Position numbers and translations under genes: made by a program. From sequence record NC_019500.1: 64,000 nt of DNA, one strand, 5' to 3'. Source of the stretch: Escherichia phage Bp7. Under the pieces are notes generated by a model, which searched no databases, had not been told where the DNA came from, and worked only from the letters and a program-made list of their open reading frames with translations. Positions 3,326 through 31,042 of the stretch are shown one piece after another; within the stretch, counting starts at the first letter, position 1; every line of letters starts with the position of its first letter.

Positions 3326-4295
3326 AGTAGTAAATGGTTTAACTATTAATGAAAACGACTTCATGTGGGAACAGAAATATCGTCCAGGTACTTTATCTGA
3401 GTGTATTCTGCCAGCGCATGATAAAGAAACCCTCCAAGCCATTGTTAATAAGGGTCTAATCCCTAACATTATCCTAGTCTCTGCTTCACCAGGCACAGGT
3501 AAAACTACCGTAGCTAAAGCATTGTGTGCTGATACAAATTCAGATATGCTTTTTGTTAACGGTTCCGACTGCCGTATTGATTTCGTTCGTAATGAACTTA
3601 CTCGTTTTGCATCTTCCAAATCTATCGAAGGTAAACGTAAGGTAATTGTTATCGACGAATTCGACCGCGCCGGTGTTGCTGAAGCTCAACGTCACCTTCG
3701 TTCGTTCTTAGAAGCCTATTCCTCAAACTGTTCTGTAATTATTACAGCAAACAATATTGATGGTATTATCGGTCCACTTCAATCCCGTTGTCGTGTTATT
3801 AAATTTGGTGAAGCCACTCCGGCCGACCAAACAACCATGATGAAAGAAATGATTCATCGTGCTGTAGCAATCTGTAAAAACGAAAATATCGAAGTCGAAG
3901 ACCTTAAAGTTATTGCTGCCTTAGTTAAACAAAACTTTCCTGACTTCCGTAAAACAGTTAACCAACTGGACCGTTACTCATCCAGTGGTAAAATCGATAC
4001 AGGCATTTTGAGTATTGTAATGAATACCAATTCGCCTATCGATGAAGTAGTGGCTGCACTTAAAGATAAAAACTTTAAAGAACTCCGTGCATTAGCTCCA
4101 CGTCATGTCAACGATTATTCCAACTTTATTATGTCGCTGGCTAACGAACTCTATGGTAAATTGCCTGGGCCAAGCATTGTTAGAATGTACGAAATTGTCG
4201 GTGAAAATAACCAATACCACGGTATTGCGGCTAACCCAGAAATTCACATGACTTATCTGTTCATCCAACTTGCTCTGGAGCTCCAATGGCTATAA
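3318..4295 (+). CDS. 44: gp44 clamp-loader large subunit (AAA+)
   Basis: Walker A SPGTGKTT, VIVIDEFDR, SRC motif; matches T4 gp44; ATG at 3318 after a GAGGAAA RBS. Confidence 0.9.
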   Translation: MSKVVNGLTINENDFMWEQKYRPGTLSECILPAHDKETLQAIVNKGLIPNIILVSASPGTGKTTVAKALCADTNSDMLFVNGSDCRIDFVRNELTRFASSKSIEGKRKVIVIDEFDRAGVAEAQRHLRSFLEAYSSNCSVIITANNIDGIIGPLQSRCRVIKFGEATPADQTTMMKEMIHRAVAICKNENIEVEDLKVIAALVKQNFPDFRKTVNQLDRYSSSGKIDTGILSIVMNTNSPIDEVVAALKDKNFKELRALAPRHVNDYSNFIMSLANELYGKLPGPSIVRMYEIVGENNQYHGIAANPEIHMTYLFIQLALELQWL

Positions 4296-4858
4296 GTCTT
4301 TTTGATGATGACGTTGAACTGAACGAACATGAAGTTGCTTGGAAATCACGTAACGACGCTGCAATTCAAGCCTTGGCCGATTCATTTAAAGAAAAGGCTG
4401 AAAACGAACTGTTCGCCATTATGAACGATATCACATATGGTAAAAACCAACGTAACTTGGCTCAATCGGAAAACTACAATCAATTTTGGCTCGATAATAG
4501 TTTGAGCCAACATGTGGATTGCATTATGCAAGCTGCAATGGTTAACTGTCTGAAACTTGATGACCAAAGTCATTTCAACTATCTTTTACATGCTGTTCCT
4601 AAGGGTAAGAGATTTGGTAAATGGGCTAAGGCCCATGATGATGAAGTTAGTGTAGTTTTTATTACTCGTTTATTGATGAAATACCATTCAATTAATAATG
4701 ATGACGCTTATCGTTATCTCGAGACTTATAAAATTAAAGGCCATCTTCCGGCGGTGCTTAAGAAGATGAAAGGGTTGGTTACTGACGAGTTCCTGAAATC
4801 CGTAACCAAAAATGTTAAAGAACAAAAAGACTTGAAAAAGAAAGCATTGGAATGGTAA
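4286..4858 (+). CDS. 62: gp62 clamp-loader small subunit
   Basis: 190 aa; MAISLFDDDVELNEHEVAW ... KNVKEQKDLKKKALEW resembles T4 gp62. Confidence 0.85.
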   Translation: MAISLFDDDVELNEHEVAWKSRNDAAIQALADSFKEKAENELFAIMNDITYGKNQRNLAQSENYNQFWLDNSLSQHVDCIMQAAMVNCLKLDDQSHFNYLLHAVPKGKRFGKWAKAHDDEVSVVFITRLLMKYHSINNDDAYRYLETYKIKGHLPAVLKKMKGLVTDEFLKSVTKNVKEQKDLKKKALEW

Positions 4859-26906: not shown

Positions 26907-27146
26907 ATGATTAAAGTAACTAAAGACCAATTTTATAAGTTGAAATTTGAAACCGAATATATTATTAAGGTCGACCAAGACGATACAAATATTCGTGGCA
27001 AGGCCCATAAGGTCTTGCATTCTCTTAAAGAGATTGAATACGATTTTATTGCAATACAGCGTCTAATGGACGACAATATCTCTTCGGTTTATATTGAAGA
27101 CTACATCGTTGGCCAAATCCGAGACCTTATGAGGTATGTTAAATGA
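26907..27146 (+). CDS. hypothetical protein
   Basis: 79-aa ORF with ATG after a GAGGAAA RBS. Confidence 0.35.
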   Translation: MIKVTKDQFYKLKFETEYIIKVDQDDTNIRGKAHKVLHSLKEIEYDFIAIQRLMDDNISSVYIEDYIVGQIRDLMRYVK

Positions 27147-27817
27147 AAGATATAATTATTGACTTCGAAACCTTTGCTACTACCCAAAATGCTGCGGTTA
27201 TCGACCTTGCAGTAATTGCTTACGACCCTAATCCAGAGGTTGTAGAAACGTTTGAAGAGCTTACTCAACGAGGCCTTCGTATTAAATTTGACCTCGCTTC
27301 TCAACGTGATAAACGTCTGTTTTCTAAAAGCACGTTGCAGTGGTGGAAAGAGCAAGGGCCTGAAGCACGTAAAAACCTGGCCCCATCCGAAATTGATGTG
27401 AGCACTTCTATCGGCCTTGGTAATTTCCTGGAATACTGCCGTAAAAACGAAGTGGACCAATGGAAATCACAGATGTGGTGTCGTGGAATGTCATTTGACT
27501 TTCCTATCTTAGTCGACCTTATTCGCGATGCTTATCGTTCTGAAGGTGTTCCTGAGAATGAAATTGATACCAGTAAATTAGAACCGGTTAAATTCTGGAA
27601 CCAACGTGATATCCGTACGGCCATCGAAGCATATTCATTGACTCGCGGATTGAGCATGTGTCCTCTGCCTAACGGAACATTGAGTGGGTTTGTAGCCCAT
27701 GACTCCATCCATGACTGTGCCAAGGATATCTTGATGCTGAAATATGCTCAACGTTATGCCTTGGGCCTGGAAGATGTCCCTGAGAATCCTGACCCGTTAA
27801 GTGTAAAAAATCGATAA
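27143..27817 (+). CDS. dexA: DexA exonuclease A
   Basis: 224 aa; IIDFETFATTQNAAVIDLAVIAYDPNPEVVETF is near-identical to T4 DexA. Confidence 0.85.
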   Translation: MKDIIIDFETFATTQNAAVIDLAVIAYDPNPEVVETFEELTQRGLRIKFDLASQRDKRLFSKSTLQWWKEQGPEARKNLAPSEIDVSTSIGLGNFLEYCRKNEVDQWKSQMWCRGMSFDFPILVDLIRDAYRSEGVPENEIDTSKLEPVKFWNQRDIRTAIEAYSLTRGLSMCPLPNGTLSGFVAHDSIHDCAKDILMLKYAQRYALGLEDVPENPDPLSVKNR

Positions 27818-27821
27818 AAGT

Positions 27822-27850
27822 GTTTACTTCTCCTCATGACATGATATTAT
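27822..27850 (+). promoter_or_regulatory. early promoter embedded in a 9-bp inverted repeat that includes the RBS
   Basis: gtttac, 17 bp, tattat; ctcctcatg (27830-27838) pairs with catgaggag (27863-27871). Confidence 0.45.
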
Positions 27851-27877
27851 CTACCCTATCAACATGAGGAGAACAAA

Positions 27878-28351
27878 ATGAAAATTTATCGAGTGGAGTC
27901 ATCGTTTAGTATCTTAGACAACAGCGATGTTATCACAATCACTCGTCATCAATGTCGCCAATTAACCCCGTATAGAGGCTCATTTGACGAATGGAGTGAA
28001 GGTTGGTTATTGGAAGTAGGTTTCGACAGACCTAATTTTAGACACCATCATACCAATAATAAAAATATTCCATTACCAAGTCAAGACGAATTGTTGGTTA
28101 AAAATTCTAATATGGTAATTAAAACCAAATTCGAACATGAAGATTATAAAGGTGTAGATAACTACATTCCAGGTTGGTTTGTCAATCTCTACCATTTTGC
28201 TTTTGCCAGCGAGTATGATATGATGCGCTGGTTCACTCGTGAAGAGCGTGCTGAATTATCTTCTAAAGGATTTTACCTTGCTGTTACGAAATACCTGAAG
28301 ATGAGTTGTCATTGGTGGCCGCCAAGTAAGGTTCCGCAAATCCCATGCTGA
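27878..28351 (+). CDS. hypothetical protein
   Basis: 157-aa ORF. Confidence 0.35.
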   Translation: MKIYRVESSFSILDNSDVITITRHQCRQLTPYRGSFDEWSEGWLLEVGFDRPNFRHHHTNNKNIPLPSQDELLVKNSNMVIKTKFEHEDYKGVDNYIPGWFVNLYHFAFASEYDMMRWFTREERAELSSKGFYLAVTKYLKMSCHWWPPSKVPQIPC

Positions 28352-28493
28352 ACTCGTAGATTTATGAATGAGAACAATATGAAATTTAATTACAACCCTA
28401 AATACACCCCGAATCCAGCAGCTAAACTGATTGATTTGATGTTTTAAGCACTTATGTATGCCTGTTAAACCACTGGAAATTAAGGAACCTGCT

Positions 28494-28928
28494 ATGAATA
28501 CTCAGACTATCGAAATCGGCAAAACCTACAAACTGGTTGAACGTGAAATTAAAACTAAGGCCTTGATTTCTGGCCATAAAACTCTGACTGAGGTTTTTGG
28601 CGAAGGCGAATTTATTGTTGAAGAATTTACCAAAAGTGACTGGTTTACTAAATCTTACGTCATCCACGGCCGTCGATTAGATAATAACAAAATAGAGAAA
28701 ATCTTGGTTTATGAAGCAGAGTTCATCCTGTTCCAAGAAGTTGAAGTCGAACAAGACCCTACTGACCTGCTGTGTGCTGCTGTGTCTATCCGTCGTCCTT
28801 TTGATAATCCTATCTGTGGATGGGTAACAGACCAATGGGTTGAAGATGGGGTTGAGCTGCTGAACGTTGTACATGCTGGTGATTTTAGTGTAGTACCTCG
28901 TAGTGCAGTGGTTAATGTATTGAATTAA
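28494..28928 (+). CDS. hypothetical protein, paralogue A (shared C-terminal WVEDGVELLNVVHAGDFSVVP module)
   Basis: C-terminus matches that of the 29002 ORF. Confidence 0.35.
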   Translation: MNTQTIEIGKTYKLVEREIKTKALISGHKTLTEVFGEGEFIVEEFTKSDWFTKSYVIHGRRLDNNKIEKILVYEAEFILFQEVEVEQDPTDLLCAAVSIRRPFDNPICGWVTDQWVEDGVELLNVVHAGDFSVVPRSAVVNVLN

Positions 28929-28930
28929 TA

Positions 28931-28959
28931 GTTTACTTTATCGAGGGCCATGTTATAAT
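28931..28959 (+). promoter_or_regulatory. early promoter cassette
   Basis: gtttac, 17 bp, tgtTATAAT flanked by gagggccat / atggctctc. Confidence 0.45.
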
Positions 28960-29001
28960 GGCTCTCATGGAGAATAAACCTTTAACCAAGAGAGAAAAAT
29001 T

Positions 29002-29568
29002 ATGATTACTATTTCCGATATCGGCGGTATTGTTCGTGTATCCAAAAAGTCTCGTTCAAAAGCTGCAGGCTGTTTAGTTGAAGTTGTTAGTATCCAACTT
29101 AAAGAAGGTGTCAGTGTAGAAAATTCTGAAGTAAAAGTGCGTATCATTCCTAAAAATGGTCAAACTGAAACTCAATTCGCTTATGTGCGTGCTAAATTCT
29201 TGGAATCGACTGAATTTACCGGATACATCGCTCCTGTAGTTGAAGAAGTTGAATCCCATGATGGGTATGTATGTGAAAGCAATGATATCCGTGGCGTAGT
29301 AGCTCAAGACGTTGAAACTATTGACCAATCTCATGTTGGTGTTGATTTCAAATGGAAATTAGGTAAAGGTGTCTTTTTCGTTTCACCTAAACCGTTTGAA
29401 TACAATTGCAAGTATGGTCCGACTTATGAAACCACTAGTATGTCCGGTTACATCACAGACCAATGGGTTGAAGAAGGTGTTAAGCTGTATAACATCGTGT
29501 TCCTTGGCACCTTTAAAGTAGTTCCTGAAAGTTTTATTGTTGAGTATGCTGATATTCATTTTGCATAA
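29002..29568 (+). CDS. hypothetical protein, paralogue B (C-terminal WVEEGVKLYNIVFLGTFKVVP)
   Basis: C-terminus matches that of the 28494 ORF. Confidence 0.35.
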   Translation: MITISDIGGIVRVSKKSRSKAAGCLVEVVSIQLKEGVSVENSEVKVRIIPKNGQTETQFAYVRAKFLESTEFTGYIAPVVEEVESHDGYVCESNDIRGVVAQDVETIDQSHVGVDFKWKLGKGVFFVSPKPFEYNCKYGPTYETTSMSGYITDQWVEEGVKLYNIVFLGTFKVVPESFIVEYADIHFA

Positions 29569-29580
29569 AGTTTAAAAACA

Positions 29581-29610
29581 GTATACAACAGGGTAGTAGT
29601 GTGATACTAT
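29581..29610 (+). promoter_or_regulatory. early promoter cassette
   Basis: gtatac, 18 bp, tgaTACTAT flanked by gggtagtag / ctattaccc. Confidence 0.4.
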
Positions 29611-29640
29611 TACCCTATCAACAAATGAGAGGAAAATAAA

Positions 29641-29865
29641 ATGGCTAAAGTTACTGTGAACTCTACTCGTGAAGAATTTGAAGATGTTCTGTTCAACCCT
29701 GATTTAATCGTGGTTCAAAAGGAACATTCTGATACGTTTTCTCATTTATCGTCAGTTTATGTATACGAAAATCAAGGCGATAAAAATCCTATCTATGCAG
29801 TGTTCCGTGAAATCACTGCTGAAGGCACCGACTTCTGGAAGGAAACTTACAATGCCACTTTATGA
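29641..29865 (+). CDS. hypothetical protein
   Basis: 74-aa ORF. Confidence 0.3.
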   Translation: MAKVTVNSTREEFEDVLFNPDLIVVQKEHSDTFSHLSSVYVYENQGDKNPIYAVFREITAEGTDFWKETYNATL

Positions 29866-30028
29866 TTACAAATGCCAATCTGAAGACTGTGCGAAAGAAT
29901 ACGAAAAAATCAAGAAAATCTCTGAAAGAGATAATGATGTTTGCCCTGATTGCCATCGGCTGGCTGTTCGGTTAGTCTCGGCTCCTAAACATGTTAATGG
30001 CGGTTTTTACGACCTGCTGACTAAGTGA
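29852..30028 (+). CDS. FmdB-type zinc-ribbon protein
   Basis: MPLYDYKCQSEDC...CPDCH. Confidence 0.4.
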   Translation: MPLYDYKCQSEDCAKEYEKIKKISERDNDVCPDCHRLAVRLVSAPKHVNGGFYDLLTK

Positions 30029-30034
30029 GAAATT

Positions 30035-30295
30035 ATGAAATATATTAATCGTTCTATTGCAGCTCTCGTATTAGCAGTTTCTTTGGTTGGATGTACTGAT
30101 GCCGATAATGCCACCCGTGTATTGGATGCAAATGGCTACGAACAAATCCAAATCACAGGATACAACCTATTTGGCTGCTCTGAAGATGATTTCCAACGTA
30201 CAGGCTTTATTGCTGTCGGTCCGACGGGTAAAAGGGTTGAAGGAACCGTTTGTTCTGGATTATTCTTTAAAAAGTCGACCATTCGATTTGATTAA
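30035..30295 (+). CDS. lipoprotein (lipobox LVGC)
   Basis: MKYINRSIAALVLAVSLVGCTD. Confidence 0.4.
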   Translation: MKYINRSIAALVLAVSLVGCTDADNATRVLDANGYEQIQITGYNLFGCSEDDFQRTGFIAVGPTGKRVEGTVCSGLFFKKSTIRFD

Positions 30296-30313
30296 GGGCT
30301 TCGGCCCTTTTCT
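30295..30313 (+). terminator. UUCG-tetraloop hairpin with a short U-run
   Basis: aagggcTTCGgccctttt. Confidence 0.45.
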
Positions 30314-30361
30314 TGTTAAGCAAAGTATCCAAATCCTTAAATCTATGTTATAATACATATT

Positions 30362-31042
30362 ATGAAATATATAACATACTTAACAATATATGATGGAACA
30401 AAGCTACCTCCATTTTATATAGGCTCCACTTATTTGGATAAACACCTAGCTGGATATCATGGTTCGGTTACATCCAAAAAGTACGAAGACCTATATAATA
30501 AAGAGCTTGAGGAACACCCTGAATTATTTGATAGCATGATTTTGGGTGAATTTGAAACCAGAGAAGAAGCTACATTTTGTGAGCTTTATTACCAAAAACT
30601 TTATAACGTTGTTAAAAGTAATTTATTTTTCAATATGGCATATGCTACCGTTGACGGATGTTTTGGTATGGATGTTTGTAAAGAAAATAATCCATTTTGG
30701 AACCATAAACATTCTGAAAGTACATTAAAAGCCCAATCTGATGCTAAGATTGGAGAGCTTAATCCTATGTACGGGACTAAACGCCCTGAGCATTCTAAAG
30801 CAATGTCAAAAGAAAATAATCCTTTTTATGATAAGAAACACACCGAAGAAGGATTGGTTAAGTGTGGAATTAAAAATCGTAAAAGTCCGGTATGGGAATA
30901 TGAATCTGCTTTAGAAAAATTATGGTTAGAATTAGATAAACCTAAATTGGCTATGTTTATGCGAGAAAGTATTAAACGCGGTTTTCCTGAAGGTTCATAC
31001 AAAAATATTTTACGACAATTCGAGAGAAGACATAATGATTGA
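30362..31042 (+). CDS. GIY-YIG homing endonuclease (Seg-like) with NUMOD3 repeats
   Basis: FYIGSTYLDKHLAGYHGS; NPFWNHKHSESTLKAQSD, NPMYGTKRPEHSKAMS, NPFYDKKHTEEG. Confidence 0.6.
   Translation: MKYITYLTIYDGTKLPPFYIGSTYLDKHLAGYHGSVTSKKYEDLYNKELEEHPELFDSMILGEFETREEATFCELYYQKLYNVVKSNLFFNMAYATVDGCFGMDVCKENNPFWNHKHSESTLKAQSDAKIGELNPMYGTKRPEHSKAMSKENNPFYDKKHTEEGLVKCGIKNRKSPVWEYESALEKLWLELDKPKLAMFMRESIKRGFPEGSYKNILRQFERRHND

What the first reader, a model, noticed from the sequence alone, without database searches (positions are those of the whole stretch)
28494..29568. Tandem paralogous ORFs sharing a conserved C-terminal module
Adjacent ORFs 28494-28928 and 29002-29568 end in nearly the same about 30-aa segment (GWVTDQWVEDGVELLNVVHAGDFSVVP versus GYITDQWVEEGVKLYNIVFLGTFKVVP) but have unrelated N-terminal parts, and each has its own promoter cassette. 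This looks like duplication followed by N-terminal diversification.
Basis: seen in the sequence. Interest (0 to 1): 0.35.

Follow-up and report, generated by a model that had tools for sequence, protein, structure and literature searches.

The report
Phage motB.1 and motB paralogs
The two neighbouring genes are the T4-type phage early genes motB.1 and motB, whose shared C-terminal domain and different N-terminal domains were already described in 2021, so the finding is real but ordinary.

Summary
ORF1 (28494-28928) and ORF2 (29002-29568) share a C-terminal segment: BLASTP gives 19/34 identical residues, E=1e-11. A profile-profile comparison extends the match to 51 columns (98.6% probability, E=5e-16).

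The window is Escherichia phage Bp7 (Dhakavirus). Its gene order, dda-dexA-motB.2-motB.1-motB-cef-39, matches T4. ORF2 is MotB (Pfam PF17613, 3e-61). ORF1 is MotB.1 (phrog_2333, 6e-65).

This relationship is already published. Patterson-West et al. 2021 (PMC7827196) described the same C-terminal domain, different N-terminal domains and a proposed duplication, and included Dhakavirus. Kim et al. 2025 (PMC12152347) assigned the MotB.1 N-terminal domain to an LSm-like family with GoF.

- Only motB has its own promoter-like site. ORF1 lies downstream of motB.2 with no promoter match.
- The N-terminal domains belong to different domain families, so they are not diverged copies. A single-gene form in Klebsiella phage Marfa (KOW-type N-terminal domain plus MotB.1-type C-terminal domain) points to duplication followed by N-terminal domain replacement.

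Side observations:
- Bp7 carries seven clustered 1-nt deletions that cut a conserved N-terminal motif off ORF1.
- The T4 reference motB.1 is a +1 frameshifted allele that lacks the last part of the shared domain.

Novelty: already known. Interest is low.

The parts
27823..27850 (+). Early-type (sigma-70-like) promoter match upstream of motB.2. It is the likely promoter for the motB.2-motB.1 transcription unit.
   Evidence: TTTACT-16-TATTAT with TG, 9/12 matches. It lies inside a stable hairpin (27828-27873, z=-5.2).
27878..28351 (+). motB.2 homologue. Its C-terminal ~20 residues are out of frame relative to T4, IME08 and QL01.
   Evidence: phrog_1106 at 8e-34. The alignment with T4 and IME08 MotB.2 breaks after ...GFYLAV. 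The window alone has 1-nt deletions at 28284 and 28305.
28364..28448 (+). Remnant small ORF (MNENNMKFNYNPKYTPNPAAKLIDLMF*). It corresponds to the N-terminal extension of the ~180-aa MotB.1 proteins of relatives and is cut off from ORF1 by 1-nt deletions at 28435 and 28461.
   Evidence: DNA alignment with IME08, phage 04086, a Logan contig and QL01. The extension is conserved in 113 or more family members.
28494..28928 (+). ORF1 = motB.1 (144 aa from the ATG with a good AAGGA Shine-Dalgarno sequence; GenBank Bp7 annotates 156 aa starting at 28458).
   Evidence: phrog_2333 at 6.4e-65, the same family as T4 MotB.1 at 1.7e-46. The 156-aa form is an exact match to Bp7 YP_007004167.1 'motB.1'. Position is syntenic with T4.
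28494..28748 (+). MotB.1 N-terminal domain (residues 1-85), predicted small beta-barrel with one helix, LSm-like/GoF-type.
   Evidence: AF2 strands 11-14, 39-47, 54-61, 67-73, 80-83, pLDDT about 81-89. phrog_622 (GoF family) hit at 7.7e-6 over residues 4-88. PMC12152347, section 2.2.
28767..28919 (+). Shared C-terminal module in ORF1 (residues 92-142), MotB.1-type, acidic (C-terminal domain pI 4.1).
   Evidence: hhalign. Pfam motB PF17613 hit on residues 104-139 at 6.4e-9. AF2 strands 96-99, 107-117, 120-127, 130-135, 139-141. Charge.
28932..28959 (+). Early-type promoter match for motB (GTTTAC-type -35, TG-extended TATAAT). The -10 box sits in the loop of a stable hairpin (28931-28979).
   Evidence: 10/12 match, the best in the region. 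Hairpin -21.7 kcal/mol, z=-4.3; the T4 counterpart has the same arrangement with a different stem sequence, z=-4.2.
29002..29568 (+). ORF2 = motB (188 aa).
   Evidence: Pfam PF17613 at 2.9e-61; phrog_1671 at 3.6e-71. Exact match to Bp7/QL01 MotB YP_007004168.1. Aligns end to end with T4 MotB.
29002..29211 (+). MotB N-terminal domain (residues 1-70), basic (pI 9.6), KOW/SH3-like beta domain with the conserved RVSxKSRSKAAG motif.
   Evidence: AF2 strands 10-13, 25-32, 43-48, 58-63, 67-69. Charge. KOW assignment from PMC7827196, section 3.1.
29212..29328 (+). Acidic linker (residues 71-109), predicted disordered. Part of it is an insertion absent from T4 MotB.
   Evidence: pLDDT below 50 for residues 71-109. 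Gap in T4 MotB in the alignment. Net charge -9.
29356..29547 (+). Shared C-terminal module in ORF2 (residues 119-182), MotB-type, with an 11-13 residue insertion relative to MotB.1.
   Evidence: hhalign. AF2 strands 123-135, 141-157, 160-167, 170-175, 179-182, pLDDT 80-94.
28827..28870 (+). Copy 1 of a 44-nt direct DNA repeat (82% identity, first 20 nt exact). Its partner is at 29455-29498 and encodes TDQWVE(D/E)GV.
   Evidence: codon-position identities.
29455..29498 (+). Copy 2 of the 44-nt direct DNA repeat.

Best explanation
The two ORFs are motB.1 (ORF1) and motB (ORF2) of a Dhakavirus T4-type phage; the window matches Escherichia phage Bp7. They are ancient paralogs with two domains each and share only the C-terminal domain, a five-stranded small beta-barrel of about 50-65 residues. 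Its core motif is G(W/Y)(V/I)(T/S)DQW(V/I)E(D/E)G(V)(E/K)L(L/Y)N(V/I)V.

MotB carries a basic KOW/SH3-like N-terminal domain. MotB.1 carries an LSm-like N-terminal domain of the GoF family. Both are early genes. motB has its own early promoter, and motB.1 most likely rides on the motB.2 transcript.

From experiments on T4, MotB binds DNA tightly and non-specifically, changes how the host nucleoid protein H-NS sits on DNA, de-represses H-NS-silenced host genes and doubles burst size. MotB.1 has no known phenotype.

My inference on mechanism (about 50% confidence): the shared acidic C-terminal barrel is not the DNA-binding surface. It is a common docking or dimerisation module that brings two different nucleic-acid-binding heads (basic KOW for DNA, LSm-like possibly for RNA) to the same partner or place.

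My inference on origin: a single ancestral gene with a KOW N-terminal domain and a MotB.1-type C-terminal domain, still seen in Klebsiella phage Marfa, was duplicated. One copy kept the KOW domain and its C-terminal domain diverged (motB). The other kept the C-terminal domain and gained a GoF-type N-terminal domain (motB.1).
For: Identity: Pfam motB at 2.9e-61 for ORF2, and 6.4e-9 for the ORF1 C-terminus only. phrog_1671 and phrog_2333. T4 MotB.1 falls in the same phrog_2333. Exact matches to the Bp7 proteins annotated motB.1 and MotB. Synteny with T4 dda-dexA-motB.2-motB.1-motB-cef-goF-39.2-39.1-39.

Shared domain. AF2 gives the same strand order in both C-terminal domains. Foldseek hits for both models are two-barrel proteins (tandem Tudor, Agenet, Spt5 KOW, eIF5A), though weak. 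BFVD returns T4 MotB.1, MotB and a KOW protein.

Published basis: PMC7827196 sections 3.1-3.2 and discussion; PMC6070864; PMC12152347 section 2.2.

Module independence: KOW + MotB.1-type C-terminal domain hybrids, tandem LSm N-terminal domains and other architectures. The Marfa single gene.

Charge argument: MotB N-terminal domain pI 9.6, ORF1 C-terminal domain pI 4.1, MotB.1-type C-terminal domains pI about 4.1-4.5 (one of seven near neutral).

Promoters.
Against: No experiment exists for the Bp7 proteins; every functional statement is transferred from T4. The published prediction treats the MotB C-terminal domain as an OB-fold nucleic-acid-binding domain, and several MotB-type C-terminal domains are mildly basic (pI 8.5-9.0), so a DNA-binding role for the C-terminal domain is not excluded. 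The fold assignments rest on AF2 models with weak Foldseek scores (best E=1.9e-3, TM about 0.3). I could not separate the domains, so SH3-like versus OB topology is unresolved. The ancestral-state inference rests on one examined outgroup genome plus unplaced metagenomic representatives. The apparent lack of a promoter before ORF1 comes from a consensus scan only.
Confidence: 0.85

Rival explanations
1. This is the first reader's version: a recent local tandem duplication of one gene, after which the N-terminal halves diverged in place beyond recognition.
For: The genes are adjacent, on the same strand, and share a C-terminal module. Both N-terminal domains are predicted small beta-barrels, so very remote common ancestry cannot be excluded. 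A 20-nt exact DNA match sits inside the module.
Against: The two C-terminal domain types are only 30-45% identical to each other but 67-93% identical within the MotB.1 type across genera, so the split predates the T-even genera. The ORF1 N-terminal domain has its own relatives, the free-standing gene family GoF (PMC12152347). There is no N-terminal signal in BLASTP or hhalign. KOW + MotB.1-type C-terminal domain proteins exist. Third-codon identity in the module is 16/34, so there is no sign of recent conversion beyond the 20-nt block.
Confidence: 0.08
2. The shared C-terminal module is itself the nucleic-acid-binding domain, an OB-fold or cold-shock-like domain as suggested in the literature. 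On this view MotB and MotB.1 are two nucleoid or RNA binders that use the same binding domain with different accessory N-terminal domains.
For: The HHpred assignment of the MotB C-terminal domain to SCOPe b.40.4.5 with eIF5A as closest hit (PMC7827196, section 3.1). eIF5A appears among the Foldseek hits (rank 44). Some MotB-type C-terminal domains are basic.
Against: The invariant core (D, Q, W, E, D/E, G) is acidic and aromatic, and six of the seven MotB.1-type C-terminal domains have pI 4.1-4.5. The conserved basic patch lies in the MotB N-terminal domain. T4 MotB.1, which carries only part of the C-terminal domain, showed no effect in the RNA reporter assay (PMC12152347 abstract).
Confidence: 0.3
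3. The similarity is chance or compositional and the ORFs are unrelated.
For: None beyond the short length of the match.
Against: E=1e-11 pairwise and E=5e-16 profile-profile. The Pfam motB model hits both. An exhaustive profile search finds the module only in this family; 34 representative clusters out of 1.84 billion proteins matched, the weaker ones being repeat proteins.
Confidence: 0.01

Closest known systems
T4 MotB / MotB.1 pair (Patterson-West et al. 2021, Viruses 13:84, PMC7827196; MotB function in PMC6070864)
   Same: Same genes, same order and same neighbours (motB.2 upstream, cef downstream). The C-terminal domain is shared and the N-terminal domains differ. A duplication origin was proposed, and Dhakavirus members were included in their survey.
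   Different: Bp7 MotB has a roughly 25-residue acidic, disordered insertion between its domains and is acidic overall (pI 5.05, against 9.23 reported for T4 MotB). Bp7 MotB.1 has the complete C-terminal domain, whereas the T4 reference MotB.1 is cut short by a +1 frameshift. The MotB.1 N-terminal domains of Bp7 and T4 are only weakly similar (E=0.004 over 19 residues), although both fall in phrog_2333.
GoF / Frd.2 / MotB.1 LSm-like fold family (Kim et al. 2025, PMC12152347)
   Same: The ORF1 N-terminal domain hits the GoF family profile (phrog_622, 7.7e-6). AF2 predicts a five-stranded beta domain for it.
   Different: GoF and Frd.2 have other C-terminal domains and lack the MotB-type module. 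The window itself lacks goF.
Single-gene KOW + MotB.1-type C-terminal domain proteins of more distant T4-like phages (for example Klebsiella phage Marfa YP_009850199.1)
   Same: Same locus (between dexA and cef), with the same C-terminal module (MotB.1 type) and the same KOW-type N-terminal domain as MotB.
   Different: There is one gene instead of two, with no LSm-type N-terminal domain and no motB.2.
Tandem small-beta-barrel readers and adaptors (53BP1 and UHRF1 tandem Tudor, plant Agenet, Spt5 KOW6-7, eIF5A)
   Same: These are the best structural matches of both AF2 models; like them they consist of two consecutive small beta-barrels.
   Different: The matches are weak (E>=1.9e-3, TM about 0.2-0.35, 6-16% identity). 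This is resemblance of fold class only, with no evidence of shared function or ancestry.

Membership tests
MotB (Pfam PF17613; phrog_1671) | Full-length match to the family profile above the curated cut-off | tested here: met
   ORF2 scores 206.5 bits against a cut-off of 25, E=2.9e-61. phrog_1671 at 3.6e-71 over residues 5-188.
MotB (Pfam PF17613; phrog_1671) | Two-domain architecture: basic KOW-like N-terminal domain plus C-terminal beta domain | tested here: met
   AF2 domains 1-70 and 110-188. N-terminal domain pI 9.6. Aligns with T4 MotB in both domains.
MotB (Pfam PF17613; phrog_1671) | Genomic position: early region between dexA/motB.1 and cef, with its own early promoter | tested here: met
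   Synteny. Promoter match at 28932-28959.
MotB (Pfam PF17613; phrog_1671) | Non-specific DNA binding, effect on H-NS, toxicity, gain in burst size | not testable with these tools
   Known only for T4 MotB (PMC6070864, PMC7827196).
MotB.1 (phrog_2333; categories 2-4 of Patterson-West 2021) | Profile match shared with T4 MotB.1 | tested here: met
   ORF1 hits phrog_2333 at 6.4e-65. T4 MotB.1 hits the same profile at 1.7e-46.
MotB.1 (phrog_2333; categories 2-4 of Patterson-West 2021) | MotB.1-type C-terminal core motif (DPTDLLC...GWVTDQW(I/V)EDGVELLNVVH...VVPRS) | tested here: met
   Present in full in ORF1.
MotB.1 (phrog_2333; categories 2-4 of Patterson-West 2021) | Gene immediately upstream of motB and downstream of motB.2 | tested here: met
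MotB.1 (phrog_2333; categories 2-4 of Patterson-West 2021) | N-terminal extension carrying the LIDFDVxSTYVxPxKPL motif, present in most ~180-aa members | tested here: not met
   In the window, two 1-nt deletions (28435, 28461) put the motif out of frame. T4 MotB.1 also lacks it, so it is not strictly defining.
LSm-like fold family GoF/Frd.2/MotB.1 (Kim 2025) | N-terminal bent five-stranded antiparallel beta-sheet related to GoF | tested here: inconclusive
   AF2 gives five strands plus one helix in residues 11-83, and phrog_622 (GoF) matches at 7.7e-6. No domain-level structure comparison was possible.
OB-fold cold-shock DNA-binding domain (published prediction for the MotB C-terminal domain) | Five-stranded barrel with OB topology and a match to OB structures | tested here: inconclusive
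   Five strands are predicted. Whole-chain Foldseek hits are mostly SH3-like tandem barrels, with eIF5A only at rank 44. The topology could not be checked.

The most novel reading that the evidence does not exclude
The MotB.1-type C-terminal domain and a short peptide, (I/V)(I/V)DxD(V/I)x(S/H)xYxxPxxP(L/I), form a mobile partner-docking cassette. In the proteins I collected, the peptide occurs only alongside this C-terminal domain type, whether it sits at the extreme N-terminus or between the domains. Phages would attach this cassette to different nucleic-acid-binding heads (KOW, LSm-like, tandem LSm). The only MotB.1 studied experimentally, the T4 reference allele, is a natural +1 frameshift mutant that lacks both the last three strands of the domain and the peptide. 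The published 'no phenotype' results would therefore say little about the full-length protein found in most relatives.
Probability: 0.25. Interest if true: 0.4.

Novelty: already known. Interest (0 to 1): 0.12.

Why it matters
The finding itself adds nothing new. It rediscovers the MotB/MotB.1 relationship published in 2021 and confirms that it holds in phage Bp7.

The wider family is of modest interest. MotB is one of the few T4 early proteins linked to counter-silencing of the host nucleoid protein H-NS. Working out what the shared C-terminal domain does (DNA binding, or docking and dimerisation) would show how T-even phages remodel the host nucleoid.

Two side observations could help people working on these proteins:
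- The T4 reference motB.1 is a frameshifted allele.
- A short conserved peptide travels with the MotB.1-type C-terminal domain.

Tried and rejected
- **PDB sequence search.** Neither protein gave a meaningful hit, so no solved structure of the family exists.
- **Rfam scan of 27000-30500.** Nothing significant; the best hit was the S15 leader at E=0.88.
- **More copies of the module in the window.** None found.
- **Exhaustive profile search for the module outside T4-like phages.** Only the family itself turned up, plus a few long tail-fibre or repeat proteins. These matched a 25-residue stretch several times each. I regard them as beta-hairpin look-alikes, not homologues.
- **Exact-pattern scans of IMG/VR for the frameshifted and intact T4 motB.1 alleles.** Neither pattern was found, so I could not measure allele frequencies.
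- **Recent gene conversion between the paralogs.** Considered because of the 20-nt exact repeat, but rejected as a general explanation: third-position identity over the module is only 16/34.

Full report
**Observation**

The two ORFs exist as described: 28494-28928 (144 aa) and 29002-29568 (188 aa), both on the + strand. A longer version of the first ORF, starting at 28458, is also open. The quoted peptides are exact.
- BLASTP of the two proteins gives a single alignment of 34 residues, with 19 identical and 26 similar, E=1e-11.
- tblastn of either C-terminal part against the whole window finds only the other copy; everything else has E above 0.3.
- With family profiles the match lengthens to 51 columns. 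ORF1 residues 92-142 align to ORF2 residues 119-182, with an 11-13 residue insertion in ORF2 (probability 98.6%, E=5.4e-16).
- The N-terminal parts show no similarity at all.

**What the genes are**

The window is a T4-type phage of the genus Dhakavirus.
- The best DNA matches are phages 04086, QL01 and IME08, at about 95% identity.
- The 156-aa form of ORF1 is identical to the Escherichia phage Bp7 protein annotated motB.1. ORF2 is identical to the MotB protein of Bp7 and QL01.
- The gene order is dda, a dexA.1-like ORF, dexA, motB.2, ORF1, ORF2, cef, 39.2, 39.1, 39. This is the T4 order.
- ORF2 matches Pfam motB (PF17613) at 2.9e-61 and phrog_1671 at 3.6e-71. It aligns with T4 MotB over both domains.
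- ORF1 matches phrog_2333 at 6.4e-65. T4 MotB.1 matches the same profile at 1.7e-46. The Pfam motB model hits only the ORF1 C-terminus, residues 104-139, at 6.4e-9.

ORF1 is therefore motB.1 and ORF2 is motB.

**What is already published**

Patterson-West et al. 2021 (PMC7827196, section 3.2 and discussion) make these points:
- T4 MotB and MotB.1 share a conserved C-terminal domain but have different N-terminal regions.
- One gene may have arisen by duplication of the other.
- 40 other phage genomes, including Dhakavirus, have both genes.
- MotB.1-type proteins come with at least two kinds of N-terminal region.

They predicted a KOW-like N-terminal domain and an OB-fold C-terminal domain for MotB. 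Kim et al. 2025 (PMC12152347, section 2.2) assigned the MotB.1 N-terminal domain to an LSm-like fold family together with GoF and Frd.2. They also found that a T4 motB.1 deletion has no phenotype under laboratory conditions. In my searches, ORF1 residues 4-88 hit the GoF family profile phrog_622 at 7.7e-6, which agrees with that assignment. The finding is thus a rediscovery of a documented relationship.

**Structure**

AF2 with family alignments gave these models:
- ORF1: mean pLDDT 82.8, with two beta-rich domains (residues 11-83 and 96-141).
- ORF2: mean pLDDT 73.6. It has a beta N-terminal domain (10-69), a linker with pLDDT below 50 (71-109) and a confident C-terminal domain (123-182, pLDDT 80-94).

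Both C-terminal domains have five strands in the same order. Foldseek against the PDB returned only weak matches for either model (best E=1.9e-3, TM about 0.2-0.35). Most were proteins made of two small beta-barrels: tandem Tudor, Agenet, Spt5 KOW6-7 and eIF5A. Against BFVD, the ORF1 model found other MotB.1 proteins, T4 MotB.1 (1e-7), a MotB and a KOW-domain protein. No relative has a solved structure. I could not test whether the C-terminal barrel has SH3-like or OB topology.

**Distribution and modularity**

An exhaustive HMM search of 1.84 billion representative proteins with a C-terminal domain profile found 34 clusters. About 25 of these are true family members, all small proteins. The long proteins at the bottom of the list are tail or repeat proteins and I do not consider them homologues.

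The family shows several architectures:
- LSm-type N-terminal domain + MotB.1-type C-terminal domain.
- Two tandem LSm-type N-terminal domains + C-terminal domain (for example phage VR25, 251 aa).
- An extra N-terminal domain + LSm N-terminal domain + C-terminal domain (about 248 aa).
- KOW N-terminal domain + MotB-type C-terminal domain (MotB).
- KOW N-terminal domain + MotB.1-type C-terminal domain.

The last form is the only homologue in Klebsiella phage Marfa, where one 125-aa gene sits between dexA and cef. The two C-terminal domain types are 30-45% identical to each other. Within the MotB.1 type, identity is 67-93% across genera.

I infer an old duplication of a KOW + MotB.1-type C-terminal domain gene. 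The N-terminal domain of one copy was then replaced, and the C-terminal domain of the other diverged and gained an insertion. It rests on few outgroup data.

**Expression signals**

The consensus scan finds + strand promoter-like sites upstream of motB.2 (27823-27850) and upstream of motB (28932-28959, 10/12 matches with TG). It finds none upstream of ORF1. In relatives the motB.2 stop overlaps the motB.1 start. ORF1 is therefore probably co-transcribed with motB.2, and only ORF2 has its own 'cassette'. The ATG at 28494 has an AAGGA sequence 7 nt upstream and corresponds to the T4 MotB.1 start. The GenBank start at 28458 has no such signal.

**Mechanism**

Shown for T4 only: MotB is an early protein that binds DNA tightly and non-specifically. 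It co-purifies with H-NS and StpA and changes the H-NS footprint. When overexpressed it up-regulates 75 host genes, about a third of them H-NS-regulated. It is toxic and doubles burst size (PMC6070864, PMC7827196).

Inferred here: the MotB N-terminal domain is basic (pI 9.6). The conserved core of the shared C-terminal domain is acidic and aromatic, and six of the seven MotB.1-type C-terminal domains examined have pI 4.1-4.5 (one is near neutral). I therefore favour the N-terminal domain as the DNA-binding head and the shared C-terminal domain as a common docking or dimerisation barrel (about 50%). The published alternative, that the C-terminal domain is a nucleic-acid-binding OB fold, gets about 30%. 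Several MotB-type C-terminal domains are mildly basic, so that alternative remains open.

Bp7 MotB differs from T4 MotB. It has an acidic disordered insertion in the linker and is acidic overall (pI 5.05, against 9.23 reported for T4).

**Things noticed on the way**

1. Compared with IME08, 04086, QL01 and a metagenomic contig, the window alone has seven uncompensated 1-nt deletions between 28284 and 28461. Most are in short homopolymer runs. Only three other candidates appear in 30 kb of comparison with QL01. The deletions frameshift the MotB.2 C-terminus. They also detach a 39-residue N-terminal extension that about 180-aa MotB.1 proteins carry. Local sequencing error in the Bp7 record is the simplest explanation, but I cannot prove it.
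2. That extension contains a short conserved motif (LIDFDVVSTYVCPVKPL). The motif also occurs between the N-terminal and C-terminal domains of KOW + MotB.1-type C-terminal domain proteins. Among the 269 proteins collected it never occurs with a MotB-type C-terminal domain.
3. The T4 reference motB.1 (119 aa) ends in ...GWVTDQWIGRWR*. The rest of the C-terminal domain (EDGVELLNVVHAGEYSVVPRSAVVAILN) is intact in the next reading frame. Full-length 144-aa versions exist in T4_ev151 and phage FL23. Neither paper that mentions motB.1 mentions a frameshift or truncation.
4. The window lacks goF, a clean 435-bp absence relative to QL01. It carries a 226-aa NUMOD3-containing ORF, probably a homing endonuclease, in front of gene 39.
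5. The early promoters of motB.2, motB and cef sit in stable hairpins with the -10 box in or next to the loop. T4 has the same arrangement at motB with a different stem sequence.
6. The two C-terminal domains share a 20-nt exact DNA match, 628 nt apart.

**Verdict**

The feature is real and correctly observed, but it is an already described pair of paralogs. Interest is low.

Noticed in passing
window 28284-28461: The window has seven uncompensated 1-nt deletions (28284, 28305, three at 28364-28369, 28435, 28461), mostly in short homopolymer runs. All four relatives compared lack them. They frameshift the MotB.2 C-terminus and detach the N-terminal extension of MotB.1. This may be a local sequencing error in the phage Bp7 record or a genuine mutant.
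   Followed up: partly
L002 (T4 NC_000866) 4222-4310, minus strand: The T4 reference motB.1 (119 aa) is a +1 frameshifted allele. After ...TDQWI the annotated frame reads GRWR*, while the remaining 28 residues of the shared domain (EDGVELLNVVHAGEYSVVPRSAVVAILN) are intact in the next frame. Full-length 144-aa alleles exist in T4_ev151 and phage FL23. Neither of the two papers that discuss motB.1 mentions this.
   Followed up: partly
window 28425-28475 (out of frame); proteins P0001, P0224, P0226, P0228, P0232, P0233, P0235, P0230: A short conserved peptide, (I/V)(I/V)DxD(V/I)x(S/H)xYxxPxxP(L/I), lies at the N-terminus of ~180-aa MotB.1 proteins. It also lies between the KOW N-terminal domain and the MotB.1-type C-terminal domain in other phages. 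Among the 269 collected proteins it never occurs with a MotB-type C-terminal domain. It may be a linear interaction motif coupled to that C-terminal domain.
   Followed up: partly
window 29852-29865 (junction between cef and 39.2): goF is absent. The 435 bp present in QL01 and IME08 between cef and 39.2 are cleanly missing, as in phage 04086.
   Followed up: partly
window 30362-31042: A 226-aa ORF with NUMOD3 motifs and a YIGS-type N-terminus, probably a Seg-like homing endonuclease, is inserted between 39.1 and gene 39. It is absent from QL01 and IME08. The first ~150 nt of gene 39 do not align with QL01.
   Followed up: partly
window 27828-27873, 28931-28979, 29590-29616; L002 4174-4208 (minus strand): The early-promoter regions before motB.2, motB and cef each form a stable RNA hairpin (z = -5.2, -4.3, -2.6) with the -10 box in or next to the loop. 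T4 has the same arrangement before motB with a different stem sequence. The motB.2 hairpin pairs the region around the -35/spacer with the Shine-Dalgarno sequence, so read-through transcripts could be translationally masked.
   Followed up: partly
window 28827-28846 and 29455-29474: A 20-nt exact direct repeat (ACAGACCAATGGGTTGAAGA) lies inside the two C-terminal domains, 628 nt apart. It is a possible substrate for recombination that would fuse the motB.1 N-terminal domain to the motB C-terminal end.
   Followed up: no
protein P0237 (phage BYEP01, 43 aa): This is a fusion of the first 14 residues of MotB.2 with the last 29 residues of MotB.1, apparently a deletion derivative. The '29-aa peptide' of RB69 in Patterson-West 2021 may be a similar remnant.
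   Followed up: no
window 29212-29328: Dhakavirus MotB has an acidic, predicted-disordered linker insertion (net charge -9). It makes the whole protein acidic (pI 5.05), unlike the basic T4 MotB (pI 9.23 reported).
   Followed up: no
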